IMG/VR virus record: IMGVR_UViG_3300042882_000890
Location: 42,605 to 106,604 of that record
Direction: 5' to 3' (one strand)
DNA: 64,000 bases
Origin: a virus
Shown here: positions 17,198 to 49,442 of the stretch, piece by piece
Layout: every line of letters starts with the position of its first letter
How positions within the stretch are numbered: the first letter of the stretch is position 1
Position numbers and translations under genes: made by a program
Notes under the pieces: model-generated
What the model saw: only the letters and a program-made list of their open reading frames with translations
What the model was told of the DNA's origin: nothing
Databases searched by the model: none

Positions 17198-17201
17198 TAC
17201 T

Positions 17202-17307: not shown

Positions 17308-17339
17308 CTTGTGTAATTAAAAAACTTATCGTAATTTTG
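17308..17339 (+). promoter_or_regulatory. Bacteroidota primary-sigma promoter
   Basis: CTTG-N20-TAATTTTG. Confidence 0.8.
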
Positions 17340-17363
17340 CAAAGTGAAATTAAAACATTAATT

Positions 17364-17790: not shown

Positions 17791-17791
17791 T

Positions 17792-26991: not shown

Positions 26992-29900
26992 TTAAATATC
27001 TTCTTCGTCTAATACCCAAGCTACTGGAATAAGAGCTTCCTCTTTGTTAAAGTAGTCAAAGGCATCTCTCTGAGATTTTAAGTTCTCTGCATTCCAAACA
27101 TCAAACATAGATTTAGCACCTGTTATATTTTTGATAAGATAAACTTGTTGTTTTGTCAAACCTTGATATCTACCTCTCTCAACTACGCTTGTGTCTAGTA
27201 AGTTCCCAATTTTAACTAAATTCTCAATTTTTTGTAAACCTACTACAGGCTCTTTGAAAGATGAATAAAATTCACCAAAAGAACCTAATTGAGAAGAAGC
27301 TACCTCGGTTGTTGTTCTTTCAAACAAGTATGCTGATAGTTGTGCTCCCCACAAATCTTCTTCGTCATCTGCAAAACTAGATAAGAATATGGTTAGCAAG
27401 AACAAACCTGAAAGGAATAACAACTCTTTACTGGCTCTTTCAAGATTTTTTCTAGTTGTTTCATCACCGTTAATATATAAGTCTTTAAACTCATTCATTA
27501 TACCTTTTAGCTTACCTTTTTTGTAACCCATATTTATTGCATCAACAAAGTAGTTAGCTGCTGTAACGTATGTCCCTTCTTCTACTTTACCTGTCTGGAA
27601 GTTTATGTGTCTTCTTTTAAAACGGTTAGCGGCAGATATTGCTAACCAACCTTTATGTGTCATTACAAATCTACCTAAAACGTCTCTCTGTAAAGTTGTT
27701 CTTTCTTCATTTGTGATTTGACCGTCAATTCTTTCGACTAGTTTCTTAGTCTTAGATATAACGCCTAACTCAATATTCCGGAAATCTTTTCTGAACTCTT
27801 CGTCATTAGCTCTATTCATATCCTTAGCCAAAGATTCAAACTCGTAAGTCATAGTTGGATAAGGTTTGCCATTTTTATCTTCTGTAAGAATGTAATTGTA
27901 TAAAGCTTTGCTTTCTAAGGCTTTCCAGGCTGCGGTTACATCTTTGATATTAGCTCTTGAACCTAAAGCGTTATTAAACATTACTTTAAACTGCTCAAAA
28001 TCTACTATCTTGCCTTCATAAACTCTGTTACCATATAGCTGCGATAGCATAGCTTTTGATAGTGGTACGAAGTTACCAGCTGTATGTAAAATATACATCG
28101 ACTTACTAAGTGCTCTAGGAGCCTTATTATACATAGAGTCTTGGAATCTACGGTCTAAATCAAATATTCCGAAGTACTCCCCCATCAATGATAATTTAGC
28201 TCTGGAATTTAACTCCAAACTTTCTTTCATTGCCGGTGTAGATAGTTTGTAAAACTCTTTTCTGGCTAAGTTGTAAGAACCAGAATCTACATATTGCTCT
28301 AGTAATCTCTCTATAATTAAGGAAGCTTCTGCTGTCATCCAAGAAGTTATAGGAACAATAAAGTTTCTACCAAGAGAGTTATTTCTAAGCCAGTTGTGTA
28401 GTTTGTTAATAACTTTTGTAACATCTACTTGTCCTAAAACAGGTAAGTTTACTCTCCAGTTTCTTCTTTCTTTTACTCCAAATAAGTTGTAATCCATATA
28501 AGACTTAAACATCTTATAGGTGTTGGTAGCCTCAGCTGATTTACCCCCTGGGTAAGCTCTATTTAAAGCTTTGTCATTAAGGGTTGCGAACTCAGAATAC
28601 CTATCTTTTTTAGATTTGTATAACTCTGCTTGTTGAGCCATCAAAGCTGAAGTATAAAATAAATCCTCTGACACAAAATCCTTTTCAGAGAGTCTGTTCA
28701 AGAAGTACTTAGGTATTACTCTAAAACCTTCATTCTTTATAAAAGCTTCTCCCTTGTTTGCCTCATCTCCAAAAGCTTGTTCATCTATTCTAAATCTCAA
28801 GAAATCCTGCCACATATCTTTTGTAGAACCTTTTGGGTCTTTCAAGAAATCCATAGTTTTATTAAAACTTGTTTTTGATATTTGTGGTGCCAAATACAAG
28901 TTGTGTAATCCTAGTTCTCCATAAGAACGTAAAGTATCTTTTTGGAAGTTTATGTACTCTTTGTATAACTCAAATAACTCTTTATTAGAGTTTGCTTGCA
29001 TATTGCCATCAGCATCTAATACCGGGTTGTTTTCAGAGTCTCTTTTAGGGTTAAATAGCTGAACGAATCTACTGTTTGAATACTGTGATAATTTAGGTTG
29101 TCTTGAACCACCCTCAAAATCTTCTCTGTAATTACTGTTCTTAAATTTAATCTCCCCCATTTCGTAATAAGAGAAGTTATTGCTAACTTTTACATCATCT
29201 CTATTATTCAAAGAATTAACTAATCCAAAAACATTACCGTTGCCCTCTTTTAGGTTCGTGTAAAACTCAGACAATCCTACTGGAGCAAAAGCTTTGTAGT
29301 ACATTGCTATTTTTGACTCTGCGTATTTTAAAACAATGTCTTCTACCTCTTCTTTTAAGATATCTTCTCTACCTACTATGTTCTCTATTAACTTTTTGCT
29401 TGCGGCAGTTATAGGTCTATTTTTGGTAAAGTTTTCTAGTGCATCTCTTAATCTTTCTACTCTTCTTCTATTGGTAAGAGTCATGTTTTTTAATGCAAAA
29501 TCTATTTTGTCAGAAGTCTCTGTTATACCTTTGTCTTTTAAAGAATCGTAGTAAGCTTGGTTTGGGGTTACTTCTGAAACTTTTTCAGCTTCTTCACCCA
29601 TTTCACTTATAGTACTCTTTTGAAAAGTTTTGTATAATTCAGAATACAACTCATCAATCCTTTCTGATAAATCTAACACATTTTTTCTAATATCATCCGA
29701 CATTTCGTCTGCCAAAATATTAGTATAGTTTCTAGAGTCCTGGAACTTTTTTAGTATAGCTTTTCTTTTATCTAAGCTTTCTTTGTATTCGTTTATTTTT
29801 AGTATTGTTAACTCATCTGCTTCCGGGTCTTGTTCATACAAATCAAGCTCTGTCATCAATGTTTCAGAAGAATTAAAGCTGTTCCAAAAATCATTTGAGA

Positions 29901-32721
29901 AACCTACAGTGGAGTTCAACAAGAAGAACTCAACAGCTGCCTCTCTACCTTCTTCCGTTTCTATTCTACTAAGCTCTTCTAAGAACTTCGGTGCTAATTT
30001 ATCTACATCAATTTTTTGACCAGACAGCTCAGCCTCTCTTTTCTTTTGTGCTAATACATCAAGGTCTAGTTTAGTTATTTCAAAAGCAGTTCTTGAATCT
30101 GGGTCGTTTGGATTAGCTAATTCATAGTAAGTACCGTTTACTTCTAGTGTTTCATTAGAAGGAAAATTTACTTTTTTAATCCCACTTCTTAGAGTACCGT
30201 CATTTTCAAAAAAAGATTTTAGTTGCTTTCTTTTTAGATTAAAACCATCTAATTCGTGTTTATCTTGTAATGTGTATCTTGGTAATCCTTTTTCTGTTTT
30301 AACCCTAGCCATAAGCTCCCCTAAATCCATAGATAAAAGGCTTAGCTCTGTTTTTGTTGTTTCAGAAATACCTAGTCTAGTATAACGGTCTTCTCTTTCT
30401 TGGTAGTACTCATCTGTAAAGCTTCTCTCTACGATAGAGTTTACAGCTTTGCTTACTTCTTGTTTGTATAAAAACTCATTGCCACCATCTGCCGCATCTT
30501 TTATTTTAGGTAAACTATTTGTATTAAGCCCTTCAATTATTTCTGCATCAGTCATATTGTGACCGCTATATTTTTTGAAGTTTTCTACTTTTATATTAAG
30601 TATATCTTTCTCAAATTTAGACCAGTCGTACATACTTACAATATAGCCATCTTCATCAAAAAACTTGGTTAAGTCTTTTTCAGTAAAACCTAACTCTCTA
30701 ACCTTCATTTGAAAGGCTTTAGTTCTGTTTATGTATGTTAATTCTGCATCTCTGTTCATATCAGAAATTACAGTACTCAACATATTTAGTATGGGGTCAT
30801 TTGCGTGTGAAAGCTGTCCAAATAGAGCGTAAACCATTTGAGTATCTCTCATAGCTACATCTATAGCTTTCTCTAACTCAGGTCTTAAATCATCACTTAG
30901 GTTGTGTCTTACCATTAACCTGTTTACGATTTCATCTATAATCTTAGTTTCCGTAAGTTGTACTTTTGCTGTAACTGCTGATATAGAAGTCTCTACACTT
31001 TCTAAATCTGGAATCAAAGTTTTTAAGCTTGGGTCATTTTGTACTATTACCCTAAGCTTGCTCAGTAATGGGCTAATTTCATCCTTTAAACTACGAAGTA
31101 CAATGCCCTCTTCATTAGACAAAGTTTTACCTTTTTTATTTGCGTTGTCAATAGCAAACCCTACGTATCTAGCTTGGCTTTTTGCTAGAGAAATTAGGTC
31201 TAAAGCGGAACTCTTTGTAAGCTCTTTGTCCAGGATATCGTTAAGTTTTTGAATTGTGGCTCTAGAACCTCTACCTGCTTTTCTTAGATTTTTTTCTTGC
31301 TCAATCAAAGACATAACCAATTGTTTTGAAACAGCCGATTTAGCATCTAAAGCTGGGTCTCCGCTTGGATTCAATTGATACATTCTAAACTTTTTCTCTT
31401 TAGCTTTTTCTAATTTTAGATACTGGTTTACGTTTTTGGTTATAATTAAATCTTCTACTTTATCAGTAAGCTTTGCTATATCGTCATAGAAGCTTTGTTC
31501 AGAAATTATACTATCAAAAAAGTTTTTAAATAGCTCAAAAATCCTAGCTAAGATATTAGTTTGTATTTCTGTTTTACCTTCTGTACTAAATCTGTTTTGT
31601 AAGGCTTTGGCTAGTTCTTTTCCTAATATCTCTCTTCTTAATAGGTTCTCTATTTGCTCAGATGACATAGCAGGATTCTCAGAAATATAAACCTCTCTGT
31701 AATTCTGTGATAACTCTTGGTAAGTTTGTGTTTTGTGTATGTTTCTAAGAATATTTTCAATATCAGCATCATCCCAAGTTTCAACTATAAAGTGAGATGT
31801 CTCTTCTAGTAAACCGTCTGTGGATATCTCTCCATCTCTGTACGCTATCACTTGTTGTGATATGTCTAATAGCGTTTTAGCATCCGGAGAAATCCCATTT
31901 CTTATTTCGTAGTTTTTTACGTATTCGTCTATAGACATTACACTAACGCCCATTGCGTTAAGTAAGTCCATCAATCTCATTTTTAATGATTCTTCATTAG
32001 TATCTATGGTTTCCCCACTTAGCCCCGAAGGTAAAACTTCTCTAACTAACTTATTCAAAAATAAAGACTTTCCTTGAGCTTCCCCAAACTTTGACTTTAA
32101 ATCTTCCATAGAAGCTTTTGCAATCTCTTCAGTTGTAGCTGTCTTACCGTTAGACTCAATTTTGTTTTTACCGTCTTTTAGCTCTATTCTACCGTCTTTG
32201 AATATTTTTGTGTTGCTTTTTCCTAAACGAATTATAGCTTCATCTTTTATGATTTGCTCATTAGCTAATTGTAAGATTTGGTTGGTTCCCTCTGCCTTAT
32301 GGTAATTCTTTCCTGATTCTATTATTTTTTCATCAGACAACATATCCTCTTTGATAAGGCTGTTTATAAAACCTTCGTATGTTTCTGTGTTTGTGTTTGA
32401 AGATATTTTTTGTAATACTGTAAATGTGTCATTAACCGGTATTCCCACTTCAATCTCCCCACCTGTAGAGTCTTTCAATGCCTCTTTGAAAGAGTTGAAT
32501 GTGTTTCCTTTATCTGACTTAAAAGATAAGTTTGGCTCCACTTCCTGATTAGATAAGTTTATCTTATCTGAATAGACATTTTTAAAAGTCTCTAGGGCTT
32601 CTTCCAGGGAGCTGGTATGAGGCAGTCTGGCAATTTGTTTAAACAATCTACTTTCTGTGCCATTAGGCGTAAGTACATTATCTATTCCCCCGGTTTTATT
32701 AAATTTTATTGTACAAGTCAT
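26992..32721 (-). CDS. giant virion cargo/ejection protein (1909 aa)
   Basis: Helical, with a degenerate zincin motif (EETSH..REILGK), a C-terminal TM segment and a single Cys at residue 3. Position matches crAss-like cargo genes. Confidence 0.7.
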   Translation of the reverse strand: MTCTIKFNKTGGIDNVLTPNGTESRLFKQIARLPHTSSLEEALETFKNVYSDKINLSNQEVEPNLSFKSDKGNTFNSFKEALKDSTGGEIEVGIPVNDTFTVLQKISSNTNTETYEGFINSLIKEDMLSDEKIIESGKNYHKAEGTNQILQLANEQIIKDEAIIRLGKSNTKIFKDGRIELKDGKNKIESNGKTATTEEIAKASMEDLKSKFGEAQGKSLFLNKLVREVLPSGLSGETIDTNEESLKMRLMDLLNAMGVSVMSIDEYVKNYEIRNGISPDAKTLLDISQQVIAYRDGEISTDGLLEETSHFIVETWDDADIENILRNIHKTQTYQELSQNYREVYISENPAMSSEQIENLLRREILGKELAKALQNRFSTEGKTEIQTNILARIFELFKNFFDSIISEQSFYDDIAKLTDKVEDLIITKNVNQYLKLEKAKEKKFRMYQLNPSGDPALDAKSAVSKQLVMSLIEQEKNLRKAGRGSRATIQKLNDILDKELTKSSALDLISLAKSQARYVGFAIDNANKKGKTLSNEEGIVLRSLKDEISPLLSKLRVIVQNDPSLKTLIPDLESVETSISAVTAKVQLTETKIIDEIVNRLMVRHNLSDDLRPELEKAIDVAMRDTQMVYALFGQLSHANDPILNMLSTVISDMNRDAELTYINRTKAFQMKVRELGFTEKDLTKFFDEDGYIVSMYDWSKFEKDILNIKVENFKKYSGHNMTDAEIIEGLNTNSLPKIKDAADGGNEFLYKQEVSKAVNSIVERSFTDEYYQEREDRYTRLGISETTKTELSLLSMDLGELMARVKTEKGLPRYTLQDKHELDGFNLKRKQLKSFFENDGTLRSGIKKVNFPSNETLEVNGTYYELANPNDPDSRTAFEITKLDLDVLAQKKREAELSGQKIDVDKLAPKFLEELSRIETEEGREAAVEFFLLNSTVGFSNDFWNSFNSSETLMTELDLYEQDPEADELTILKINEYKESLDKRKAILKKFQDSRNYTNILADEMSDDIRKNVLDLSERIDELYSELYKTFQKSTISEMGEEAEKVSEVTPNQAYYDSLKDKGITETSDKIDFALKNMTLTNRRRVERLRDALENFTKNRPITAASKKLIENIVGREDILKEEVEDIVLKYAESKIAMYYKAFAPVGLSEFYTNLKEGNGNVFGLVNSLNNRDDVKVSNNFSYYEMGEIKFKNSNYREDFEGGSRQPKLSQYSNSRFVQLFNPKRDSENNPVLDADGNMQANSNKELFELYKEYINFQKDTLRSYGELGLHNLYLAPQISKTSFNKTMDFLKDPKGSTKDMWQDFLRFRIDEQAFGDEANKGEAFIKNEGFRVIPKYFLNRLSEKDFVSEDLFYTSALMAQQAELYKSKKDRYSEFATLNDKALNRAYPGGKSAEATNTYKMFKSYMDYNLFGVKERRNWRVNLPVLGQVDVTKVINKLHNWLRNNSLGRNFIVPITSWMTAEASLIIERLLEQYVDSGSYNLARKEFYKLSTPAMKESLELNSRAKLSLMGEYFGIFDLDRRFQDSMYNKAPRALSKSMYILHTAGNFVPLSKAMLSQLYGNRVYEGKIVDFEQFKVMFNNALGSRANIKDVTAAWKALESKALYNYILTEDKNGKPYPTMTYEFESLAKDMNRANDEEFRKDFRNIELGVISKTKKLVERIDGQITNEERTTLQRDVLGRFVMTHKGWLAISAANRFKRRHINFQTGKVEEGTYVTAANYFVDAINMGYKKGKLKGIMNEFKDLYINGDETTRKNLERASKELLFLSGLFLLTIFLSSFADDEEDLWGAQLSAYLFERTTTEVASSQLGSFGEFYSSFKEPVVGLQKIENLVKIGNLLDTSVVERGRYQGLTKQQVYLIKNITGAKSMFDVWNAENLKSQRDAFDYFNKEEALIPVAWVLDEEDI

Positions 32722-32740
32722 CTTTTTTATTTGTTTTGTG

Positions 32741-32772
32741 CAAAATTAATATTTTTTTTTGAATTACGCAAA
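32741..32772 (-). promoter_or_regulatory. Bacteroidota primary-sigma promoter
   Basis: Minus strand TTTG-N20-TAATTTTG. Confidence 0.75.
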
Positions 32773-32777
32773 TAGAT

Positions 32778-32808
32778 TAAAAAAGTTAGGCTACTTTTCA
32801 GTAGCCTT
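32778..32808 (-). terminator. intrinsic terminator
   Basis: AGGCTAC/GTAGCCT hairpin followed by a T tract on the minus strand. Confidence 0.6.
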
Positions 32809-32813
32809 TCTTT

Positions 32814-35800
32814 TTATTGACATCCGAAGTATTCTTCGTTTATGTCATCCAACTCTTTCTTAGAGTAATAATTTTTAGAAGTTTTAAAAGCTTCCGGTGC
32901 ATTTGCCAAGTACATGTATTCTTGAAAACTTATGTCTGAGAAAGGTGCTTCCACATTTACTTTCTTATATCCTGTTCTCTTATCTGTATCTAACTTACCG
33001 TAGAATTTTATATTCTCGAACTCAAATATCTTTTCAAAAACTCCTATTGGTGTCTTTACAAAAGTCTCACTTTCATTTTTTACAGCTAAAACTCCGTCTT
33101 TTAAGTAGGTGTATTGCCCTGATACTTTTTTGACTCTATCTGGGTTATTAACCGCTTTTTGTCTTTGTTCTAATTGAGTATTTATATCTTCTGGCTTCTC
33201 TTCTAACAAAGGCATCTCCAGGTTCAAACTGTCTGATATGATGTTGTATTCTGCCAGCTCTTGTTTGAATCTTTCTGGTACACTATCAACAGCTTCAGAC
33301 TTAGACATTTCATCGCTGTTTACCAATTCTATACCTTTACCAGTCACTTTAAAGTACGGGTTAGATGTTGTCAGTATCCACTTGTTGAAATCTTTCAAGA
33401 ACTCATCTGTCAAGTACTCCTCTGAATTAGTTATCTTATTGAAATTATCAACTTTAACAGTAGGTCTTTGTGTAGACATCGGGAAATCAAAAAACTTTTT
33501 GTAAAGGAATATTTTCTCCAAGTTATCAACATCAACTTCGTAATCAGAAACTTCTAGTAAACTTGCATTTCTCTCTACATATAGTTTTAAAGCTTCAAGT
33601 GTATCTATACCTTCCGGTAGTAAATTTTTGTATTCAAAAAAGCTTTCGTACAAGCTGTCCAAAGACTGTTCTTTTACCTTTCTATAGATACCATCATCCT
33701 TCTTAATTAATCCGAACTCAGAAAACATCTCGTATTCAGATAAAGGCTCTTCAACAACTACATCATTTTCACTATTAGTTTTTATAACTTCTGTTTTAGC
33801 TTCTTTATCACCGAGTATCTTGTAATATCTTTCAGTGAACTCAATCATGTTTTCTGGGTTACTAGGGTCTTCTATAACATCCTCCATAGAATCTAAAAAT
33901 CCTAGTACCTCGTCTCTTGATAACTCTAAAGCTAGGGTAGGGAAGTTTCTTAAATCAATACCATTTACCTGAACATTTTTCTTAATCTTATTAAGGACTT
34001 TTGATACATTTTTTAAATCACTATTGAATATCTCTTTGTCAATACCTTGTCTCAAAAACGCAATATCTTCAGTAATAGAAATGTCTAAATCATCAGTCAT
34101 TGTATTTAATAGCATACCTTCGACATCTTCTGTTTTGTCCACCAACTCCCCATCCACTACAGTTTTTATTGGAGCCTTTTTGTGGTCTCTAGCAATAGAA
34201 TCTACTGTTTCTTTGAAGTTAGGGTCTGTATAGTATTTGTTAGAGAAAGTTGTTGGTAAAGCTTCGTCAATTTCTGACTCTTCTAACCCGGCTACACTTT
34301 CTACTAAGTCTTTTTCTACAATACTAGGATTAGTAACCTCTTGCTTTCCGAACTGGTTTACTTCTCTACCTTGTGGTATAATAAAGTTTTCATCGTAATC
34401 TAATTCAAATGGCTCACTGTTTCTTAGAGATAGTAAGCTTTCTTTTATTTGCTTTTGTAACTTAGGTGAACTAAGTATAGTGTTTATTTCAAAAATGTTG
34501 TACAGTTTACTTCTTTGTAAAGATAGCTTATCAAACAGTACAATACCATTCTTCATCAAAGCTTTCTCCATTTTTTCAACTAACTCTTTTGAACTTTTCA
34601 CTTTTAAAGCCATTGCTGCGTTCTTTGCAGCTTTTAATCCTTCTAAACCTAAAGGTTTAACTTTAGAGTTTGAAAAATCCATCAGAGTTTTTATAGAGGG
34701 CTCTCCGTTAGAGTCCGTATCTTTTAAAGAAACTGGTCTAGCTTTTCTTACCATCTCAAAATCGGAAGTTTTTTCAAATCCTAAAGAAGTATAAAAAGAC
34801 TCAAGTCTTTCAGGCTTAGTGGTGGTGTCTCTTGGGCTTACCATCAAGTAAACATCTTTTCCTTGTGCATCGGTTCCATTTAAGAACAACTCCGCAGCTT
34901 TCCTTGCATTACCTTGACCTCTTTCAGTAGACTCTATAAGTTCCCACTCAACGCCCTCAAGTTTCTCTCCGGTTATCGGATTAACTCTATCCTTTGCAAA
35001 TATTTTAGTACCGTTTAACTCTAAGGAGGGCTGTCTGGTTACAGTAGGTGTGGTTGGTGTATTTAATACTGACATCCTTTTACCTTCTGGAGAATTTACG
35101 ATACTACTATATGTGCTCTTATACTCCTGAGGTAAATCAGAGTTATTTATTATATCTGAAATCTCTTCTTGGCTCAGTTTGGTATAATTCTCGTTTAAGC
35201 TGTATACACTATCATATCTATTCTCTCTATTTCTATAGTTATTTAAGTCTAGATATAGTTGTTTTAGTTTTTCGTTTTTAGGAACTGGTATTATAGATTT
35301 GTAACCTTTTGATGAATTGCTATCATAATTTTCTTGAAAAGGTTTTTTTACAGTTGCCCCCTCAGATACTTGCGTATCATTAGGCTTGTGTTCTTTAATA
35401 CTTTGAGCTCTAGTTCTGTTTTGCCATTCTGCTACAACCATCTCATATCCAAAATCTGCTGCTACTTTTGTAACATAAGCAACTTGGGTATTTGGGTCAA
35501 AGGCTTTTCCTGGATACTCTTTAGAATGGAGTTCTCTTGCTTTTTCAATAAGGTTCAAGCTATCTGTATTAAAGTCATAAACTTTATCCATAGGTATTTT
35601 TACCATGTATTTAGACTCTCCTCTAATCATGGTTTCACTGTCCTCTGGTCTAGAATAGTACATAGCAAGTCCTCCTACTTTTGCTAAAGCTTGAGCTTCT
35701 TCTCTAGAAGTTGCTGTAGTGTCTCCAGAAGTTCTTTTTATCACCTCATAGCCACTTGTACCTACATGGTAGAAAACAAAATTTCCTTGTCCATCTTCTG

Positions 35801-38800
35801 TCAAGTTTGCATAATTAGAAGAGTTCTCAGAAGTTATGTTTTCTGTTTTTGGCATAGACACCCACTCTGGTAAAAGTCCCACTTTTTGTTCTGCAAAAGA
35901 CATCTCTTCATAAACTTCCTCAGTTAACTTTTTGGCTTCTTCTAGTTTACCTTCTTGTCTTAAAACTCTAGCTTTATCTCTTTTTTTGAAAGCTTCGTCA
36001 TTTACCCCTGAGAAATTTACCCATGAATTTTGACCTCTTGTTTCTGTAGTCATAGCTCTTCTAGCTAGTGGAGAATACATTCTTGCATGAATGTTCCAAG
36101 CATTCTCTTCTCCAATTGCTCCAAAACCATTCCCAAACTTAGCGTGTCCAAAAAAGTCGTGCACAAATCGGAATACATCATTGGCTAATAAAGGTAATCC
36201 ATTAACATCTTTGTACTTAGTTTCTTGTAACAAAAGATTATCCTCTCTTTGTTTATCTGTTATTGCCTCATCACCAAAACCGGATTCTGTAGAAAAGATT
36301 TTCATACGTTTGTTGTCACGTAAGTCTGAAATCATATCAGCAGAACTGTCATAAGGTTCTAAATTGTTTATTTCTACTTTGTAACCTTTGCTTAGTATTT
36401 TTTCGTATTGCTCTAATGTCTCTTCTACCATTGCATTATATGCGGCTTTAGTTTGAGGGTCATTAGGTGTAGCTTGCATTTTATCAAACTCTTGAGCTAT
36501 TCTTTTACTGTTTTCTTTATCCAATTTTGTTATTTTTTGGATAGGTGCAGTACTCATTTTTTTATCAGCCATGTATTCATCTGCTATGATAGATGCTTCT
36601 TCTAAAGGCTCATTAAATAATTTATTCCCTGAAACAATAGAAAAGTTTATGTTTGGGTCTGTATCTCCAAACTTGGCTTTTGCTTCTTGGGTTTTTTCGT
36701 AAACTTTTTTGAAGTCTTCAAAAGATAAATCCTTTCTTCTAGCATAGGCTCTTATCATATACATTCCTCCAAAAGTGCCGGCATCTAAATGTACAGGTTT
36801 ACCCTCTTTTATACCCCAATTTGCTATATTTGTTAAATCTCCATAGATTATATCATAATCTAGAAAATCTTGTAATCCATAGCTTTTAAGTACCTCTATT
36901 AAGTCTGGATTTCTAGTATCAAAATCAGCTTGCCCATAAGGTGTCAGCTCTTGTATCATAACATCTGCATCTTCAGTATCGTACTGCTTTCCAGTATTGA
37001 TATCGTAAACAGGTACTTTTGCTTTATTTTCGAGCACTTCTAGTTTTTCAACCACTACATAGTTCAATCCTGTTTCATAAACTTGTGGAAGTAACCCCTT
37101 AGATATTAAATCAGAGTCTCCCTCTTGCATATTTTGTGCAAGACCCCTAGCTGTATTAGCCACTTTTAGAACTTTACCTTCTCCTAAGTCAAATACGACT
37201 CTATCAGAGCCTGAAGATATTTTAGTTAAGTTTGGTATATCAAATCTTTCTCTAGCTACTTGGTTAGTATCATATTTATATCTTAGGTAAGCGTTATTTT
37301 CACCCATATTTCTTGTTATCCTATTCCCGGATAACATCTCTGTAGCCGAAGCTGTTCCGAAATCAGCCAATGTCATATTAGCTACTTCGTCTGCTGTGTA
37401 ACTAGTCAATCCTAAGATATCTTTGATAGACTCCCAAACACTTTTTAACCAATCTGCTATACTGTCTTCTTTTTTAGAATTAACTAATTTAGCACCTTGG
37501 TCTCCAATCACTTGTGCTAGTACCTCATTGTTAAATTTTTCTGAGCCCTCTTCTAAATCAGGTTGAGTTTCTTTTACAATATCAATATACTGTTGAGCCT
37601 CTTCTTTATTTTTACCAATAAGAGATAGTCCGGCTTGGTATAAGTCAGTTCTATTTTCTTTTAGCCAATCTAGATGTAAATGCCCAAATTCGTGAATAGG
37701 GGTATCTAATCGCATAGCATCTGTGTTTAAATACACATCTCCTTTGTAGGTAAATCCAGCTGTGGTTAACTGTACACCATTGTAACTTAGCCTTTCAAAT
37801 TCTTCTCTTTCTAATATCTGACTTTCAATGTACTCATCAGATAACAAGTAAAGATAATCCTCTTCTGGGATATTGTTTTCTATTTGGTAAGGTCTTAATA
37901 CTTCCTCTGCTATACTTTTTCTTGTATTGTTATTGGTTAGTAACTCCTCTATAAAATTAACATAGTCTTGGTCTGTATAAGTAGAATCTCCATTATCATC
38001 TCTGATTTCAGAATTTTCCCAAAGACTCTGAGCTATTTGGTTTATAGACGGGGCAGTTTTACTTATTAAGCTCATTCTTGCTTTTACTTCCCCCTTACTA
38101 TTTCTGTATAGCTTTTTTATAGATTCTTCAGATACTCTTCCTCCGGATAAAAAGTAATTGGCTACTTCTACCTCTGGGGTATAAGCCTCTATTTTTAGAG
38201 CCTCTTTTATTACTTTTAATCTTGTATCCCTTCTTGCTAACTGTTTTGAAAATTGTATTTGCTCATCTATTGTTACATCATTTTCATCAAATACTACATA
38301 GTTAAACCCTCTTGCTGTGTCTGAAGTTGCTCCACGAGCAATACTTTCAGCAGGGTATTTTATTCCGTCAATACCTGACTCTAATAAAAATAATGAAGCT
38401 TCTTTTTGCCCTTCAAAATATCCACTTAAATATCTGTATAAATTTGCTCCATCTAAAACTTTGTCGCTAACAGATGCAGGTATAATACCCTCGTTAACCC
38501 ACATATCTAAAACTTCTGCTATTTGTTTATTTTTTTCAGACAGTGTTTTAATTACCCCTTTACTTACAGGCTTGTCCCACTCTAACCAATTATACTCTCC
38601 TACTTCTTTTCCTTTTTGTAAAGATACTTTGTATATATTTTTTGAAGGTTTATTAAAAGTTATGTTATCAAAGACAGCCTTTTCTTCATTTACTTTTTCT
38701 AAAGCTTCTTTATAATAGTTGTCTTTAGTATCTAAATACTCTTTTTCTAATAATTTTATTTGGTTTTTGTAAAAATTGTTTCCTATTTCTTTAAATTCTT

Positions 38801-40568: not shown

Positions 40569-40588
40569 TGTTTTGATTTATTTTTATG

Positions 40589-40620
40589 CAAAATTAAGAA
40601 TTTATTTTATAAAAAACAAA
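40589..40620 (-). promoter_or_regulatory. Bacteroidota primary-sigma promoter
   Basis: Minus strand TTTG-N20-TAATTTTG. Confidence 0.75.
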
Positions 40621-40634
40621 TTTGTTAACTTTTT

Positions 40635-43600
40635 TTATTCGCAAGGTTTATTTTTTTCGCTGTCTACATCTTTTTGAGATTGGTTGTTTAGCTCATACAG
40701 TCTGTCCAATGCTTCTGTAACTCTATCGCTTTGTACAAATTGAGCTTCCTGTAAAGATATCTTCTTTCTTAAAAATATTTTAGTAGCTATCTCTAGAGCT
40801 TTCTCTTCACTAACATCCCCTTCTCTCTCAGCTTCTGTATACCAATCTTTTACTCCCTCTTTTAATTCATCTAACTCTATGATAGGTTTTGGTGAAGAGA
40901 ACATGTTGTTAGCCATATCTAAGCCTATACTAGCCTCATTGGCTAAGTCAGTAGTTGTGTGCTCAGGTAACATCCAATCTTTAACACTACTTACGTTTGT
41001 AACACTGGCTAAGTCATCTATAGCTTTTAGTAAATCTTTTGTAGGGAATCCTTCAGAATCTAATATGTTTTGGTTACTTTCGTCCATATAAAACAAATTG
41101 TAAGCTGCTGGAGAAAAACCGTTGTCTGCTAATAGCTGATTAAGTTTTATAGCTGCTTCAGCTCTATTTTTAGAGTCTGTGAATATGTCAGTAACTTGGT
41201 CAGATAAGTTAGCTTCGGATTCTTTTAAAGCTACTGGGAAAGCTATCAAGTACTTGCCTTGTTTAACTACAACCACTGGTTGGTTTGTTCTTCCTAGTAA
41301 TCCTTTTATAAAATCTTCTCTTACCCCTTTTGTATTGTTTTTTAGAACTAGTTTACCGTCTTCAATATAACCGTAGTCTATAACTTGCTCCGGTATAATG
41401 TCAAACATTTTTATAGCTCCATTTTCAAAAGTAAAATTAGGAGAGCCTAAAAATATATGTTTTATGTAACTTGTTTTTGATAGTGAAGCTACACCCATAA
41501 TACCAGACTCCATTCTTGATTTGAATATCTCAAAAGCCTCTCTTCTCAAGTCTAAGTATCCTGGGATACCTGCTATATCGTAAGCTGCTTTTAAATCCCC
41601 AAGTTTTCTACCGTCTGTATCAAGTACGTTTACTTTTATGTTTTCAAAAAGTTCTTTTTCTAGTTCCTCAACATTCCTTCCTTCGTCTAAGCCCTCTTCG
41701 TATTTTTGGATAAGTTTTAGATTATACTCATCATTCATATCCAGGCTGAAAGTAACTTCTGCTGATTCCCCCGGCTCCATATTATAGATTTCTCTAGGAG
41801 AATATTCAGATGCGTTTCTGTAGTCTGTTTTTAGCTTCTCTCCGGTCTCCAAATCATAAACAGGAGAATACCCCCCATTTCTATTTAGAGTGCCTTCTAC
41901 ATGCTTCATATTAGCTTCAGCCATAACTTTAGGGAAGTCTTCGCTTTTCAAAGATATAGCACCACTTCTTTCTACTGTTAAATTAACTTTGCTTCCATCT
42001 GCAAGTGTAACTATAAAGTTAGCTCCAGGTAAAGAGTTTTCCTCTACTTCTTCTGGTGTAATTACTTTAGCTGAACCTTTTACTTCTACATTTTTACCTT
42101 TTTCCCATTTAGTTTGTACATAACCTATATCACCGGTTATTCCCATTCTTTCTAAAAGTCCAGGAAGAGTTAAATGTGATATTTGTACAGAGTTTCCTTT
42201 CTTTTTAACAAATACATTTTCGTATACTTGTATGTACTGTTCGTTTCTAATACCGCTGGCTCCGTCTACTTCTAGAGGCTCGTTATCAGATAAGTTTATT
42301 AAGTCTGAGTCTGTAAGTTTTTCTCTGATTATCGGCTCTACTGTTTGTCTAACTGCTACAGCTTGTGTTATCATTTGTTGTAGAGATACTCCGTTTTCGT
42401 TTTGGTATCCTTCTATCAACTGCCAGTTAGCCATCTTTTGGTTTAGCTCTTGTAATCTAGTTATTTCAGCCTTTGTTAAAGACGGTCTTGTTGTAGGAGA
42501 AAATCTCTTAGAGTCGTAAGGGTTTTTAAAAGCCACTAACTCCGTATCAATACGTGGGTCATCAATAGCTTTAGCCGCTAAGTCATAAAACTCTTCTATC
42601 TCGGCTTCAGTAGGAACTAAGTCTAAGATATTTTCACCAAAATTCTCTAGTAAGTATGGACTGTTTTTTACCATTTCAACTATAGAGTCTATCAGTGACT
42701 TTTTCTCTTGTACCGGCTCTTGCGTTTTGTCTTGATATTTTTTATCAATAGCATCTAACTTAGCTTGTTTTTCTTTTTCAAGCTTTTTGATTTCCTTGCT
42801 GTTGTCTGCTTTTTGTTGTGTGTTACCTATTTTTGATAACTCTTCATTTAGTAAAGCTAGAGTACTATTAACATGTGCGTAAAACTCATTTGAGTCAGTA
42901 TTTTTACCGGCAGGTTTTGTAGGTAAATTCATTGTGTTATTAAAAGATTCTAAATCTTCTTTAGAATCACTTAAAAAACCTATACCATCTTTTAGTTTAC
43001 CATTACCGTTATCTTCTCTACTTTCGATACCCCCTATCCCTTCGTTAAGTATTTTAGAAAGTTTTTCAAATAGTTGAAAGCCATAACTATTATTTATCTG
43101 CTCTTCTGAACCTTTGTTTATCCATCCAGCTTCTACCCCGATACCAAAAACAGCATACCAATTACCTGCTTTTACACTTTTCTTACCTGCTTGACCAGTA
43201 CTAATGTAAAAAGGTATATTGTATTTACCTATTTTCATCATTACCATTACTCTATCTGAGTAATCAACTACATTGTAATCTTTACCATTGATATTTATTG
43301 AAGAGAGTAAATTATTATCTTTTAACCAATTTAACTTTTCTTCTAATGTGTTTAGTTTATTTAACTCTGCTACTATGTCTGCTACTGGAGTAGATATTAT
43401 ATTAACACCTTCTTGACCTTTTAACAACGGTGTTATTAGCTTGTCATATCTATCATAGATTTCTTCAAACTTAGCTATATCTTCTGGATTAGTTAATTTG
43501 TTTTTGTCTACTTTACCATCTGTCAGGGCATTTTTTGCCTCCGGTATAGCTGCAAGTAATTCTTTTTGTTCTTGCTCTCTTAACTTAGCTATTTGTTTAG

Positions 43601-46532
43601 GGCTGTCTTCTACATCAACTACCTCTTCGGCTGTTGTTTGTAAACCTGCTATCTTGGCATCATACTCGTCTCTTACTTTTTGCTTTTCTGCTTCTTTTGC
43701 GGCTTGTTTTTCCTCAGCTGTAGGCATAGGTATAGTATCCCCATCTTTTTGAGTTTCTCTGACTTCTTCAGGTGCCTTACCTTCTTCTCCTTTGTCTGTA
43801 ACATCTTGTACTGCTTTGTTACCCTCAACAGTAGCTTCAACAACTTGGTTTTTAGCTTGTACCATTCTAGGTAGCAAAGATTCAATCATTTCGATTGTAG
43901 CCTCATTAGGAGATTTGTCTCTTTTGATTTCAGATATAAAATTTCTTTTACCTCTAAGTCCTAATTTAGGGTCTGTGATTTGTCTTGCTAAATCTGCGTA
44001 TCTTTGGAAAGAGCTCAGTGATTTAGTATACTCCTCTACTAATTTTTGTAGCTCTAAGGCATCTTGTGGGCTTACTCTTTCATAAGAAGATACTAAGTCT
44101 TTTATAGCTTTAGATTGCTCTTGTAAAACTTCTAGTTTAGCAGCTGTAATAATTACGTTTGAACCGTCTTTACTAAAAGGGTTGCTTAGCTTAGCTGTGC
44201 TAAACAATATGTCTGTTTCTTTAGCTAGATTAGTTCTTTCTTGTTCTAGCTGTGCTTTTTTGGAAGTTATTGCATCCATCTTTCCTAGCAAGCTTTTCTT
44301 CTGTTCTTCAGAAGTAGAGTTGTAGAAAGTGGTTTCTAATTTTTTATATTGTTCGTCTAAAGACATCATCTCAGACTTTAATTTCGTTATCTGAGAAACT
44401 TTCTTTTCAACTTGTCTTTTTGTATCTTTACCGGCTTTTGATAATACATGCTCAATATCTAGGGTGTCAGATATATCTTGACCTAGTATTGTGGTACCAA
44501 CTTTATTTTTTATAGCTTGTAGAATATTGCTAGAAAAAGTATCCATTTCGGCACCCATGGTCAATTCGTAAGCTAAAGCTTCTCTAAGAGCTGTTACATC
44601 GTGCTCTTTAAGTTCTGCCTTTTCCTCTTTTGATAGTTTTGAGTTTATAAAATAATTAGCAAAATCGCTATTCTTTTTATAGTTATTTGCTGTAGTTTTA
44701 TACTCCTCTATCATACTTTGTTTCAACTCATCTGCACCTTTCTCATCTACACCGTACTCTTGCATTATAGTTTCATTATCCATATTTTTGATAGCTGTAA
44801 CAGTATCTGAAACAGCATCATCCATATACCCTAGATTATATGCAAAATTTAATTGGGCTAATGCAGCATCTTTTCTAGACACCTCTTGCCCTACAAAGTC
44901 TCCGGCTGCTTCTGCTTTTTGAGAGTTTGCTTGTGCTTGTTGTACCCTATTACCATAAGCCATAGTTTCGGCAACTCTGGTACCTGAATATGTATTTCGA
45001 GTGTCTACAATAAGTTTATTTTCAGCTACTGCTCTGCTATATTCCGGGTTCCATTTACCAGTGGCAATCTTATTACCGGCAGTTCCTCCTATTAAACCAA
45101 TGAGCATACCCATTTGTATTTCTTTCCATCCCTCAGCTGTACCATAGGTTTTAGCCAAGCCCTCAGAAAAGGCATCAATTAGCCCTAAACCATTTTTAGT
45201 ATACTGTGGGTCATACTTTGCTTCTACCCAATTTTTACCGGTGTTCTGAACTACAGATTGCATACCTTCTTCCCAAATACCCTCTGTAAACATAGGTTTA
45301 GCAAATGAGTAACTTTTTCCTATAGCTTTTTGGAGTTTGTTTGCAGAAGTCTCTACAAACTCTTCTCCTACTTTTTTATAACCTACACCAAAAAGTTTTG
45401 AGTCCATCCATTTTCCAGGTGCCGATAATGGGTTTTTTATATCAAACCACTTGCCCATAATAGCTAAGTTAGATGAGCCAACGATAGCCATATTAGTTGC
45501 AAAAACACCATCAGAAGCTGTTTTTAGATTCCTTCTAAACTCCATTTCCTCTTCTCTTGTTGGCATTCTACCATTCAATCTTTCAAAATCTGTGTAGTAA
45601 CCTTCTTCCATCTCTTTTTTGAAGGCGTTTGCTTCAAATGCGGACTCAAATCCTGCACTAGTAGCTGTAAATCTTGCTGTGTTTAATAGCTCTCCTGCTC
45701 TTCCTAAATTTGTAGCAAGCTTTGTTTCTAATTGCCCTGTAGCAAAAACTTTAGCTGCTGGATTAGATAGTGTTCTAGCTTTATTCAGTGTGTTTAAGAA
45801 TCTTTCTGATTGAGCTAATTTTGCTCCCCATCTTGCGGCAGCGGTTGACATAGCTGCTCCACCTGTAGCCCACTCCAAAGCAACCTCTGAAAGAATAGCT
45901 CCTCCAAAAAACGCCATACCATTTGCGAAATCGTCTGCCCAAGTTGTGGCATTAGTAAGGTAATCTATACCGGTAGCTTCTCTATCAGCTTTTGATTTAT
46001 ATGTTGGTAGCTTGTTATCCATATACGTATTAACATCATTCACGTAATCCATGAACTTGTTATCATATAAGGATTGCATACTGCCTGTCTGAGCAGAGTC
46101 AAATAACCCATAAGCTATACCACCAAGTTGACCACCAGTGTTAGTTAGCAACTTACCCCAAAATTTAGGTAAAGCGTTACCCCAAAGTTCCCCAGATGTT
46201 TGTTTACTAGCAGCATAGTCCTCTTGGTCTGTAGCTGTTATAGAGTATGGTTTTTCGTATCTAGCAACAAATTCTCCATCAGAATATTCTTTGAATAAGT
46301 CTTCAAATTTAACATCAGAATACCCCTCCATTTTAACTTTGTTGGTATCTGCCATAACAAAGTCCATAACAGACTTTTGCTTAGGTATTTTCCCTGCCAT
46401 TTGTAAATTACTTATGATACCATCAATTGGGGCTACTACTGATAAAGCTTTTTCTAAGTTTTTATCTCTTAAATCAGTGGCTATAAACCCTAATTCTTGG
46501 TCTTTTATGTTTAAGATGTTATCTTCTTGCAT
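40635..46532 (-). CDS. giant virion cargo/ejection protein with membrane-inserting N-terminal region (1965 aa)
   Basis: Gly/Ala-rich hydrophobic helices (AFFGGAILSEV..ATGGAA, EG..EEGMQ, GMLIGLIGG), coiled coils and a single Cys as the penultimate residue. Confidence 0.7.
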   Translation of the reverse strand: MQEDNILNIKDQELGFIATDLRDKNLEKALSVVAPIDGIISNLQMAGKIPKQKSVMDFVMADTNKVKMEGYSDVKFEDLFKEYSDGEFVARYEKPYSITATDQEDYAASKQTSGELWGNALPKFWGKLLTNTGGQLGGIAYGLFDSAQTGSMQSLYDNKFMDYVNDVNTYMDNKLPTYKSKADREATGIDYLTNATTWADDFANGMAFFGGAILSEVALEWATGGAAMSTAAARWGAKLAQSERFLNTLNKARTLSNPAAKVFATGQLETKLATNLGRAGELLNTARFTATSAGFESAFEANAFKKEMEEGYYTDFERLNGRMPTREEEMEFRRNLKTASDGVFATNMAIVGSSNLAIMGKWFDIKNPLSAPGKWMDSKLFGVGYKKVGEEFVETSANKLQKAIGKSYSFAKPMFTEGIWEEGMQSVVQNTGKNWVEAKYDPQYTKNGLGLIDAFSEGLAKTYGTAEGWKEIQMGMLIGLIGGTAGNKIATGKWNPEYSRAVAENKLIVDTRNTYSGTRVAETMAYGNRVQQAQANSQKAEAAGDFVGQEVSRKDAALAQLNFAYNLGYMDDAVSDTVTAIKNMDNETIMQEYGVDEKGADELKQSMIEEYKTTANNYKKNSDFANYFINSKLSKEEKAELKEHDVTALREALAYELTMGAEMDTFSSNILQAIKNKVGTTILGQDISDTLDIEHVLSKAGKDTKRQVEKKVSQITKLKSEMMSLDEQYKKLETTFYNSTSEEQKKSLLGKMDAITSKKAQLEQERTNLAKETDILFSTAKLSNPFSKDGSNVIITAAKLEVLQEQSKAIKDLVSSYERVSPQDALELQKLVEEYTKSLSSFQRYADLARQITDPKLGLRGKRNFISEIKRDKSPNEATIEMIESLLPRMVQAKNQVVEATVEGNKAVQDVTDKGEEGKAPEEVRETQKDGDTIPMPTAEEKQAAKEAEKQKVRDEYDAKIAGLQTTAEEVVDVEDSPKQIAKLREQEQKELLAAIPEAKNALTDGKVDKNKLTNPEDIAKFEEIYDRYDKLITPLLKGQEGVNIISTPVADIVAELNKLNTLEEKLNWLKDNNLLSSININGKDYNVVDYSDRVMVMMKIGKYNIPFYISTGQAGKKSVKAGNWYAVFGIGVEAGWINKGSEEQINNSYGFQLFEKLSKILNEGIGGIESREDNGNGKLKDGIGFLSDSKEDLESFNNTMNLPTKPAGKNTDSNEFYAHVNSTLALLNEELSKIGNTQQKADNSKEIKKLEKEKQAKLDAIDKKYQDKTQEPVQEKKSLIDSIVEMVKNSPYLLENFGENILDLVPTEAEIEEFYDLAAKAIDDPRIDTELVAFKNPYDSKRFSPTTRPSLTKAEITRLQELNQKMANWQLIEGYQNENGVSLQQMITQAVAVRQTVEPIIREKLTDSDLINLSDNEPLEVDGASGIRNEQYIQVYENVFVKKKGNSVQISHLTLPGLLERMGITGDIGYVQTKWEKGKNVEVKGSAKVITPEEVEENSLPGANFIVTLADGSKVNLTVERSGAISLKSEDFPKVMAEANMKHVEGTLNRNGGYSPVYDLETGEKLKTDYRNASEYSPREIYNMEPGESAEVTFSLDMNDEYNLKLIQKYEEGLDEGRNVEELEKELFENIKVNVLDTDGRKLGDLKAAYDIAGIPGYLDLRREAFEIFKSRMESGIMGVASLSKTSYIKHIFLGSPNFTFENGAIKMFDIIPEQVIDYGYIEDGKLVLKNNTKGVREDFIKGLLGRTNQPVVVVKQGKYLIAFPVALKESEANLSDQVTDIFTDSKNRAEAAIKLNQLLADNGFSPAAYNLFYMDESNQNILDSEGFPTKDLLKAIDDLASVTNVSSVKDWMLPEHTTTDLANEASIGLDMANNMFSSPKPIIELDELKEGVKDWYTEAEREGDVSEEKALEIATKIFLRKKISLQEAQFVQSDRVTEALDRLYELNNQSQKDVDSEKNKPCE

Positions 46533-49383: not shown

Positions 49384-49401
49384 ATTGTATTAAAATTTAT
49401 G

Positions 49402-49433
49402 CAAAATTACGAATTATAATTGTTTTTTACAAA
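49402..49433 (-). promoter_or_regulatory. Bacteroidota primary-sigma promoter
   Basis: Minus strand TTTG-N20-TAATTTTG. Confidence 0.75.
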
Positions 49434-49442
49434 TTAATTAAA

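What the first reader, a model, noticed from the sequence alone, without database searches (positions are those of the whole stretch)
26992..46532. Three giant cargo proteins with cysteines only at their head-to-tail junctions: a disulfide-linked ejection chain?
Seen: reading all 6458 aa by eye, I find only four Cys. The 1965-aa protein ends ..KNKPCE, the 2584-aa protein starts MSLKC and ends ..YFGCQ, and the 1909-aa protein starts MTC. The two proteins with an N-terminal Cys share a homologous ~30-aa leader (C-x-[IV]-xxxxx-G-x-ID-x-V-xxx-NG-xx-S-x-LF). The first protein lacks the leader and the last lacks a C-terminal Cys, exactly as expected for a 1->2->3 chain in gene order. Inference: the leader is a docking module that captures the preceding protein's C-terminal Cys-X tail. 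This would couple the cargo into one covalent train for ordered packaging and threading through the tail, with release in the reducing cytoplasm.
Basis: partly seen in the sequence, partly recalled or inferred. Interest (0 to 1): 0.88.

Follow-up and report, generated by a model that had tools for sequence, protein, structure and literature searches.

The report
Terminal cysteines chain phage cargo proteins
Three giant proteins that this crAss-related phage probably packs into its particle and injects have no cysteine except one at each end that faces the next protein. Hundreds of relatives keep this rule, which points to untested end-to-end disulfide links joining the three into one chain.

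Summary
Proteins A (1965 aa), B (2584 aa) and C (1909 aa) hold four Cys in 6458 residues: A-1964, B-5, B-2583 and C-3. About 99 would be expected from the early genes.

The rule is conserved:
- 119 of 120 A homologues have a C-terminal Cys.
- 126 of 132 full-length C-family representatives have Cys at position 3-6, and the other six have truncated N-termini.
- Every full-length B homologue has exactly two Cys, one at each end.
- Two-protein relatives keep just one pair.
- phi4:1, phi14:2, crAss001, DAC15, crAss002 and other crassviruses follow the rule.
- Where two of the genes are fused, the junction carries no Cys, but the remaining free junction keeps its pair.

A ~53-aa leader starting at the Cys is shared by B and C. 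It is not universal, whereas the Cys is.

The best reading is a head-to-tail disulfide-linked chain A-B-C in the virion (confidence 0.7). It is untested for this phage group. Cryo-EM of cyanopodophage A4 shows exactly such a bond (gp27 Cys1715 to gp26 Cys5). Here the middle link is a polyvalent ADP-ribosyltransferase-bearing effector, not the RNA polymerase.

The docking role proposed for the leader is not shown. This scan has already noted the same pattern on at least 200 other genomes.

The parts
40635..46532 (-). Protein A, 1965 aa, first link. It is an orthologue of phi4:1 gp038 and a distant relative of crAss001 gp47. It has no N-terminal Cys.
   Evidence: BLASTP 7e-86 to gp038, 1e-12 to gp47; phrog_32390.
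40641..40643 (-). Cys1964 codon (TGC), the penultimate residue of A and its only Cys.
   Evidence: 119 of 120 homologues have a Cys in the last 6 residues, and for 117 it is their sole Cys.
40582..40597 (-). Promoter-like box TTAATTTTGCATAAAA, 14 nt upstream of the B start.
   Evidence: 6 matches in the window against 0.68 expected.
32814..40568 (-). Protein B, 2584 aa, middle link. It is a polyvalent effector built as a Cys-leader, a variable payload and a conserved C-terminal module.
   Evidence: Homologues range from 517 to 2584 aa with both ends conserved.
40398..40556 (-). B leader, residues 5-57, starting at Cys5 (codon 40554-40556).
   Evidence: C5 is one of 8 invariant columns among 20 B homologues.
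40122..40268 (-). LPD23 domain of B (residues 101-149).
   Evidence: Pfam PF18838, 40.2 bits against a cut-off of 27.
38670..39029 (-). ART-PolyVal ADP-ribosyltransferase domain of B (residues 514-633).
   Evidence: Pfam PF18760, 36.5 bits against a cut-off of 31.2.
32820..34352 (-). Conserved C-terminal module of B (residues 2073-2583), equivalent to almost the whole of phi4:1 gp037. It ends in a predicted helix followed by G-C-Q.
   Evidence: BLASTP 5e-20. AF2 of the last 300 aa gives pLDDT 74.7 with a terminal helix at model residues 286-297.
32820..32822 (-). Cys2583 codon (TGT), the penultimate residue of B.
   Evidence: It is invariant.
32788..32807 (-). Terminator-like hairpin followed by a T run between B and C.
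   Evidence: Read from the sequence.
32734..32749 (-). Promoter-like box TTAATTTTGCACAAAA, 13 nt upstream of the C start.
26992..32721 (-). Protein C, 1909 aa, last link. It is an orthologue of phi4:1 gp035 and a distant relative of crAss001 gp49, phi14:2 gp65 and cr118_1 gp15. It has no C-terminal Cys.
   Evidence: The family has 2790 cluster representatives.
32557..32715 (-). C leader, residues 3-55, starting at Cys3 (codon 32713-32715). The predicted fold is a beta-hairpin plus two helices.
   Evidence: C3 is one of 17 invariant columns among 50 representatives that are mostly under 50% identical to the window's protein.

Best explanation
A, B and C are internal virion (cargo or ejection) proteins that are joined head to tail by two disulfide bonds: A-Cys1964 to B-Cys5 and B-Cys2583 to C-Cys3. 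The result is one linear chain of about 6,460 residues, the post-translational equivalent of the polyprotein that some crassviruses encode as fused genes.

The rest of each protein is kept free of Cys, as in other ejected phage proteins. No other thiol can therefore interfere while the chains pass, at least partly unfolded, through the tail and the periplasm.

Because the links sit at the extreme ends, the chain stays thread-like. It fixes a 1:1:1 stoichiometry and an order of exit. It can be taken apart by reduction once it reaches the cytoplasm.

In this lineage the middle link is a swappable polyvalent effector carrying an ADP-ribosyltransferase domain and HExxH motifs. It sits between two constant couplers: an N-terminal Cys-leader and a C-terminal module ending in helix-G-C-Q.

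Shown here: the Cys pattern, its conservation, its behaviour at gene fusions and in two-protein systems, and the shared leader.

Inferred: the bonds themselves, the time at which they form, ordered ejection, and reductive release.
For: 1. Placement and depletion are far beyond chance.

2. Conservation.
- All 79 IMG/VR loci examined follow the rule. The one apparent exception (L028) simply uses a GTG start.
- 126 of 132 full-length C-family representatives have Cys at position 3-6, mostly as their only Cys. None has a C-terminal Cys, and the other six have truncated N-termini.
- 119 of 120 A homologues end in a Cys-containing tail. Only the Cys is conserved in that tail.
- All nine full-length B homologues found by the protein search have exactly two Cys, one at each end.
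- C3, C5 and C2583 are among the very few invariant alignment columns.

3. The number of C-terminal Cys equals the number of N-terminal Cys in every system.
- Three-protein systems have two pairs.
- Two-protein systems (L018, L020, L022, L024) have one pair.

4. Cultured phages obey the rule.
- phi4:1: gp038 / gp037 / gp035, proven in the virion by mass spectrometry.
- phi14:2: g067 / g066 / g065.
- crAss001: gp47 / gp50 / gp49.
- DAC15.

5. Gene fusions behave as predicted.
- The A+B fusions (cr118_1 gp14, cr50_1 gp059, cr113_1 gp38) and the B+C fusions (crAss002 gp33, cr3_1 gp24) keep the Cys pair only at the junction that remains free.
- In the two fusions that were mapped (cr118_1, crAss002), no Cys lies within 240 residues of the fused junction.
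- The vRNAP preprint states that the three proteins are fused in some phages (10.1101/2020.03.07.982082).

6. Precedents.
- Cryo-EM of cyanopodophage A4 shows a disulfide between gp27 Cys1715 and gp26 Cys5 in the pre-ejectosome (PMC12002296).
- In the A-4L record these are the sole Cys of a 1717-aa and a 1114-aa protein.
- Inter-subunit disulfides exist in crAss001 virions (PMC10172136).

7. AF2 places Cys3 just before the first strand of the leader. It places Cys2583 just after a terminal helix, as in A4 gp27.
Against: - No disulfide between these proteins has been observed in any crAss-like phage. The crAss001 atlas lists disulfides in the tail and portal vertex but none for the cargo.
- The host cytoplasm is reducing, and gut relatives live without oxygen. 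When and how the bonds would form is therefore open. No sulfhydryl oxidase was found in this partial genome, although that search was uninformative.
- The sequence alone cannot tell a chain A-B-C from an A-C link plus a B that is cyclised through its own two ends.
- There is no detectable sequence or fold similarity to the A4 proteins.
Confidence: 0.7

Rival explanations
1. The terminal Cys are free thiols in the particle. They are oxidised only during infection by the host's periplasmic thiol-disulfide oxidoreductases, so the proteins are coupled while they assemble a trans-envelope conduit.
For: Cys suppression in ejected proteins is explained in the literature by passage through the oxidising periplasm (PMC11445570). 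This reading avoids the problem of oxidising proteins made in a reducing cytoplasm or in an anoxic gut.
Against: In A4 the equivalent bond is already present in the purified virion. Fused-gene forms are covalently joined before packaging, so a joined state is compatible with packaging.
Confidence: 0.1
2. The terminal Cys do not pair with each other in gene order. They might bond to other virion proteins (portal, inner capsid), form homodimers (A-A, C-C), or form an A-C link plus a self-cyclised B. Alternatively they might jointly hold a metal ion.
For: Sequence cannot assign partners. Other virion proteins of this phage and of crAss001 do contain Cys.
Against: The counts of N- and C-terminal Cys always match within the block, in two-, three- and fused systems. 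The head-to-tail order matches the order in the fused polyproteins. The neighbouring cargo proteins D, E and F have no Cys. No conserved His or further Cys accompanies the terminal Cys to complete a metal site.
Confidence: 0.08
3. The Cys serve a non-disulfide thiol chemistry. Candidates are an acyl-shift or ligation reaction that makes a true peptide bond between the proteins, a thioester, or S-acylation that anchors the ends in a membrane.
For: A Cys close to the N-terminus facing a C-terminal Cys superficially recalls ligation chemistry. Fused forms show that a peptide bond at these junctions is functional.
Against: The N-terminal Cys is at position 3-6, not 1, and no processing site is evident. 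There is no intein-like block: no N-terminal intein half of about 100 aa starting with Cys, and no C-terminal half ending in HN before the Cys. There is no signal peptide or lipobox. Recombinant phi14:2 gp66 was purified and crystallised as an unmodified 2180-aa chain.
Confidence: 0.04
4. There is no covalent link at all. The terminal Cys are conserved for another reason, such as a packaging or processing signal or redox sensing by each protein alone.
For: No experiment yet shows a bond in this phage group.
Against: This does not explain why the first protein has only a C-terminal Cys and the last only an N-terminal one. It does not explain why the pairs vanish at fused junctions, or why the only solved case shows a bond.
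Confidence: 0.08

Closest known systems
Cyanopodophage A4 / Anabaena phage A-4L ejection proteins gp27 and gp26 (pre-ejectosome; PNAS 2025, PMC12002296; PDB 9k3a holds gp26)
   Same: These are two consecutive internal virion proteins. Each has a single Cys: gp27 at 1715 of 1717 (..NPCQF) and gp26 at 5 (MSKHC). Cryo-EM shows the two bonded, and the C-terminal helix of gp27 docks into gp26. Window A ends ..NKPCE. B and C start with Cys at 5 and 3, and B ends in a predicted helix followed by G-C-Q.
   Different: A4 has one link, not two. The proteins are not detectably related in sequence or fold. A4 is a 42-kb T7-like cyanophage. The A4 paper treats the bond as a structural detail, not as a conserved rule. 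Here the bond is only inferred.
RNA-polymerase cargo block of Crassvirales: phi14:2 g067-g066-g065 and crAss001 gp47-gp50-gp49
   Same: A is homologous to gp47 and C to gp49 / gp65. The position at the end of the virion module is the same, and so is the terminal-Cys rule. The proteins are virion-packaged according to PMC10172136 and 10.1101/2020.03.07.982082.
   Different: In Crassvirales the middle protein is the two-barrel virion RNA polymerase. Window B has no DFDxD-type motif and no match to 6VR4. It is a polyvalent effector instead. Neither paper mentions the cargo cysteines.
Cellulophaga phages phi4:1 and phi17:2 (Lightbulbvirus), gp038-gp037-gp035
   Same: These are the nearest cultured relatives at 27-29% identity. 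All three proteins were found in the virion by MS/MS. The Cys sit at residue 1957 of 1957, at 4 and 516 of 517, and at 3 of 1914.
   Different: The middle protein is only 517 aa, consisting of the C-terminal module alone with a different N-terminal sequence. A small non-virion gene (gp036) lies between the middle and last links.
Cys-free ejection proteins of Schitoviridae (N4 gp50, DEV gp71 / gp72 / gp73)
   Same: These are giant ejected proteins almost devoid of Cys. The depletion is ascribed to passage through the periplasm (PMC11445570).
   Different: Those proteins have no Cys at all. Here one Cys is kept at each junction-facing end.
Polyvalent proteins of phages and conjugative elements (Pfam LPD and ART-PolyVal domains)
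   Same: B carries LPD23 and ART-PolyVal above the Pfam cut-offs. Payload domains are shuffled between relatives.
   Different: As far as I could find, no terminal-Cys coupler architecture has been described for that class.

Membership tests
Disulfide-coupled ejection proteins of the A4 gp27-gp26 type | Consecutive internal virion or ejection proteins | tested here: met
   A, B's C-module and C are homologous to phi4:1 gp038, gp037 and gp035, all detected in virions by MS/MS.
Disulfide-coupled ejection proteins of the A4 gp27-gp26 type | A lone Cys within a few residues of the C-terminus of the upstream protein and at position 3-6 of the downstream one | tested here: met
   The A-4L proteins were checked.
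Disulfide-coupled ejection proteins of the A4 gp27-gp26 type | The disulfide bond is physically present in the virion | not testable with these tools
   This needs non-reducing gels, disulfide-mapping MS or cryo-EM.
Disulfide-coupled ejection proteins of the A4 gp27-gp26 type | Homology to A4 gp26 / gp27 | tested here: inconclusive
   BLASTP gave nothing significant. Foldseek and VIA searches with the C 1-420 model did not list the A4 entry.
Crassvirales RNA-polymerase cargo block (gp47 / gp50 / gp49) | First and last proteins homologous to gp47 and to gp49 / gp65 | tested here: met
   A against gp47 gives 1e-12. C against gp49 gives 3e-11, and C against cr118_1 gp15 gives 1e-25.
Crassvirales RNA-polymerase cargo block (gp47 / gp50 / gp49) | Middle protein is a two-barrel RNA polymerase with a DFDxD catalytic motif | tested here: not met
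   No D[FYWLIVM]DxD motif occurs in A to F. B has no match to 6VR4 or any other PDB chain. Its Pfam hits are LPD23 and ART-PolyVal.
Polyvalent proteins | LPD and effector domains strung in one giant phage protein | tested here: met
   PF18838 scores 40.2 bits (cut-off 27) and PF18760 scores 36.5 bits (cut-off 31.2). Payload blocks are shared with other family members in other positions.
Split inteins / protein trans-splicing | Catalytic Cys at the first residue of an N-terminal intein half of about 100 aa, and Cys+1 after a C-terminal intein half of about 35 aa | tested here: not met
   The Cys lie 0-5 residues from the C-terminus and at position 3-6 from the N-terminus. No intein Pfam hit was found.
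Bacterial lipoproteins | Signal peptide with a lipobox before the Cys | tested here: not met
   Only 2-5 residues precede the Cys.

The most novel reading that the evidence does not exclude
The terminal Cys with their flanking modules act as portable couplers of a redox-gated cargo train. Any payload placed between an N-terminal Cys-leader and a C-terminal helix-Cys tail is hitched into a linear chain. The chain is packed at fixed stoichiometry and pulled through the tail in order. It stays intact in the oxidising periplasm and is uncoupled only by reduction in the cytoplasm.

Phages would then change the number of links (two to several) and swap payloads (RNA polymerase, ADP-ribosyltransferase, peptidases) without touching the delivery mechanism. 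A gene fusion and a Cys pair would be interchangeable solutions.
Probability: 0.4. Interest if true: 0.85.

Novelty: new variant of a known kind. Interest (0 to 1): 0.78.

Why it matters
Crass-like phages are the most abundant viruses of the human gut, and how they pack and inject about 1 MDa of protein is an open question.

A conserved end-to-end tether would explain:
- how three separately made giants are delivered together and in order;
- why some phages fuse these genes;
- how the proteins might be released, namely by reduction rather than by proteolysis.

The idea is directly testable on cultured phages (phi4:1, phi14:2, crAss001) with a gel and a mass spectrometer.

In this lineage the middle link is a variable anti-host effector. 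The couplers may therefore be a general way of loading new cargo, and could be used to deliver chosen proteins with phage particles.

Tried and rejected
- **Complex prediction.** B's last 150 aa were folded with C's first 420 aa, both as alignments. The tool gave no verdict, with scores 0.00 and 0.00 and no controls run. This counts neither for nor against docking.
- **Fold searches with the AF2 model of C 1-420.** Foldseek against the PDB found nothing at E <= 0.001. The VIA-align wide search ranked phi14:2 gp66 (6vr4_B, residues 2-94) second against model residues 13-104. Its Z of 4.8 (rmsd 2.8 A, 75 aligned) is too weak to claim a shared leader fold.
- **PDB sequence searches.** A, B and C gave no meaningful match.
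- **Megablast of the block against phage records.** No match.
- **Locus scan for Crassvirales.** An alignment spanning the window lineage and Crassvirales was too divergent to scan IMG/VR with. Reference crassviruses were fetched one by one instead.
- **Erv1/ALR sulfhydryl oxidase in the own genome.** The search was uninformative because its controls did not ring either. A thioredoxin-like ORF exists outside the window, but such genes are common next to nucleotide-reductase genes and this one says nothing about virion oxidation.
- **Possible internal leader copy.** The AF2 model of B's last 300 aa begins with a hairpin plus two helices that looks like the leader. Leader profiles found no internal copy in B, so the idea was dropped.
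- **Apparent exceptions.** L028 uses a GTG start before ASTC. The IAS virus gp055/gp056 junction is full of N and cannot be read. P0206 and six C-family representatives are truncated gene calls.
- **More chain members.** A scan of the whole 106.6-kb record with the leader profile found the leader only on B and C.
- **Split intein, lipobox and metal clasp.** These were considered and rejected on position and on the lack of accompanying residues.
Full report
**What is there**

The window is part of a 106.6-kb IMG/VR virus record. Its late, minus-strand module ends with three giant genes:
- A: 40635-46532, 1965 aa.
- B: 32814-40568, 2584 aa.
- C: 26992-32721, 1909 aa.

Together they hold four Cys in 6458 residues: A-1964 (..KNKPCE), B-5 (MSLKC), B-2583 (..YFGCQ) and C-3 (MTC). 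The three virion proteins just upstream (949, 643 and 1598 aa) hold none.

The early genes on the other strand hold 1.54% Cys. About 99 Cys would therefore be expected in A+B+C. The chance that four random Cys land one in each junction-facing end is about 9e-12.

B and C each have their own promoter-like TAATTTTGCAYAAA box 13-14 nt before the ATG, which supports the called starts.

**Who they are**

The nearest cultured relatives are Cellulophaga phages phi4:1 and phi17:2 (Lightbulbvirus) at 27-29% identity. More distant relatives are the gut phage csAssE-Sib and true Crassvirales.

- A is orthologous to phi4:1 gp038 and distantly to crAss001 gp47.
- C is orthologous to phi4:1 gp035 and distantly to crAss001 gp49, phi14:2 gp65 and cr118_1 gp15.
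- The last ~510 residues of B equal almost the whole of phi4:1 gp037.
- The phi4:1 proteins were found in virions by MS/MS.

B carries Pfam LPD23 and ART-PolyVal above their cut-offs and two HExxH motifs. It has no RNA-polymerase motif and no match to the phi14:2 polymerase structure. In this lineage the slot that holds the virion RNA polymerase in Crassvirales is therefore occupied by a polyvalent effector.

**Conservation**

- In all 79 related IMG/VR loci the rule holds. A ends in ..C or ..C plus 1-2 residues. B starts M-x-x-x-C (Cys at 3-5) and ends ..C-x. C starts with Cys at 3-5. The one apparent exception uses a GTG start.
- A profile of C's C-terminal 720 residues finds 2790 cluster representatives among 1.84 billion. 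Of the best 150, 132 look full length. Of these, 126 have Cys at position 3-6, mostly as the only Cys in 1,800-4,974 residues. None has a C-terminal Cys, and the six others start downstream of the leader.
- Of 120 A homologues, 119 have a Cys in the last six residues, and for 117 it is their only Cys. Nothing else in the tail is conserved.
- All nine full-length B homologues found by the protein search, 514-1357 aa long, have exactly two Cys, one at each end.
- In alignments, C3 (C family), C5 and C2583 (B family) are among 17 and 8 invariant columns.

**Natural experiments**

Some relatives lack a middle protein. There, A with a sole Cys at its C-terminal end (the last residue in L018, L020 and L024) is followed directly by C with Cys at 3-5, so the system has one pair instead of two.

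Cultured or reference crassviruses obey the rule:
- phi14:2: g067 (sole Cys is the last residue), g066 polymerase (Cys 3 and 2179 only), g065 (sole Cys 3).
- crAss001: gp47 (sole Cys 2339 of 2341), gp50 (Cys 5, 1334 and 2404 of 2412), gp49 (sole Cys 5).
- DAC15 follows the same pattern.

Where two of the genes are fused, only the junction that remains free keeps its Cys pair.
- A+B fusions: cr118_1, cr50_1 and cr113_1.
- B+C fusions: crAss002 and cr3_1.
- The fused junctions mapped in cr118_1 and crAss002 have no Cys within 240 residues.

[quoted passage not shown] A peptide bond and a Cys pair thus appear interchangeable at these junctions, and always in the same head-to-tail order.

**The leader**

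B and C share about 53 residues that start at the Cys.
- A profile built only from C-family leaders hits B 5-57 at 33 bits and hits nothing in A, D, E or F.
- In the whole record only B and C carry it.
- AF2 models it as a beta-hairpin plus two helices, with Cys3 just before the first strand (pLDDT about 77-89).
- Payload domains are inserted right after it, in B here and in C in other phages.
- B's C-terminal module ends in a helix followed by G-C-Q.

The leader is not universal. phi4:1 gp037, crAss001 gp50 and A4 gp26 keep the Cys with other sequences. The Cys is therefore the invariant element. The proposed docking of the tail on the leader remains untested.

**Comparison with what is known**

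- Near-absence of Cys in ejected phage proteins is known for N4-like phages and is ascribed to passage through the periplasm (PMC11445570).
- The crAss001 structural atlas reports disulfides in the tail and at the portal vertex. It is silent on cargo cysteines (PMC10172136).
- A lead from this scan's earlier notes pointed to cyanopodophage A4. Its cryo-EM structure shows a disulfide between gp27 Cys1715 and gp26 Cys5 in the pre-ejectosome, with the C-terminal helix of gp27 docked in gp26 (PMC12002296). I checked the A-4L record. These are the only Cys of a 1717-aa and a 1114-aa protein, so the rule is the same, but no sequence similarity to the window's proteins is detectable.
- My literature searches found no description of the rule, or of a multi-link chain, in crAss-like phages.
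- The scan itself has already noted the pattern in at least 200 other genomes.

**Verdict**

The best explanation is a linear A-B-C chain held by two terminal disulfides in the virion, functionally a post-translational polyprotein (confidence 0.7). The rivals are:
- oxidation only after ejection (0.1);
- other partners or a metal clasp (0.08);
- other thiol chemistry (0.04);
- no link at all (0.08).

It is a new variant of a kind known from one structure. It has two links, conserved across a very large phage group, and here a swappable effector is the middle link. The bonds, their timing and reductive release are inferred. A non-reducing gel and disulfide mapping of cultured relatives would settle them.

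Noticed in passing
window 46534-56163 (-): The three virion proteins upstream of A (949, 643 and 1598 aa) contain no Cys at all. They are related to the MS-verified phi4:1 proteins gp039 and gp040. They are probably further ejected cargo that is not hitched by Cys.
   Followed up: partly
window 32734-32749, 40582-40597, 49395-49410 (-) and 3854-3869 (+): A TAATTTTGCAYAAA box sits 13-19 nt before start codons (6 matches against 0.68 expected). It resembles a Bacteroidota -7 promoter element with a very short leader.
   Followed up: partly
window 7112-7551 (+): ARAGORN calls a permuted tmRNA (tag GDVYQLGGVQLRAVA) overlapping a tRNA-Met(CAT).
   Followed up: no
window 32814-40568 (-), B residues 337-341 and 959-963: B has two HExxH zincin-like motifs in addition to its ART-PolyVal and LPD23 domains. 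B therefore looks like a multi-enzyme effector in the slot of the crass virion RNA polymerase. No polymerase motif was found in A to F.
   Followed up: partly
L019/L020 4932-6191 / 10001-11260; P0017, P0082, P0088, P0133: In other phages the polyvalent payload domains sit in the C protein, inserted directly after the ~55-aa leader. C family members reach 4974 aa and still have a single N-terminal Cys.
   Followed up: partly
G000:C1:22720-22971 (outside the window): A thioredoxin-like ORF (Pfam PF00085, 52.5 bits). The match as reported spans one TAA.
   Followed up: no
L090 (crAss002, NC_055828) 7270-7368: The annotated start of gp33 is probably 32 codons too far upstream. The sequence M-S-C at residues 33-35 fits the family's N-terminus.
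   Followed up: no
L092 (cr113_1, NC_055896): The annotated CDS translations contain in-frame stops under table 11, consistent with stop-codon recoding in this crassvirus.
   Followed up: no
L002 (phi4:1) 11332-11691; L003 (csAssE-Sib) 8161-8739 and 11261-19075: Small Cys-containing, non-virion genes or whole accessory gene blocks are inserted between links of the chain in some relatives. The terminal Cys are not disturbed.
   Followed up: no
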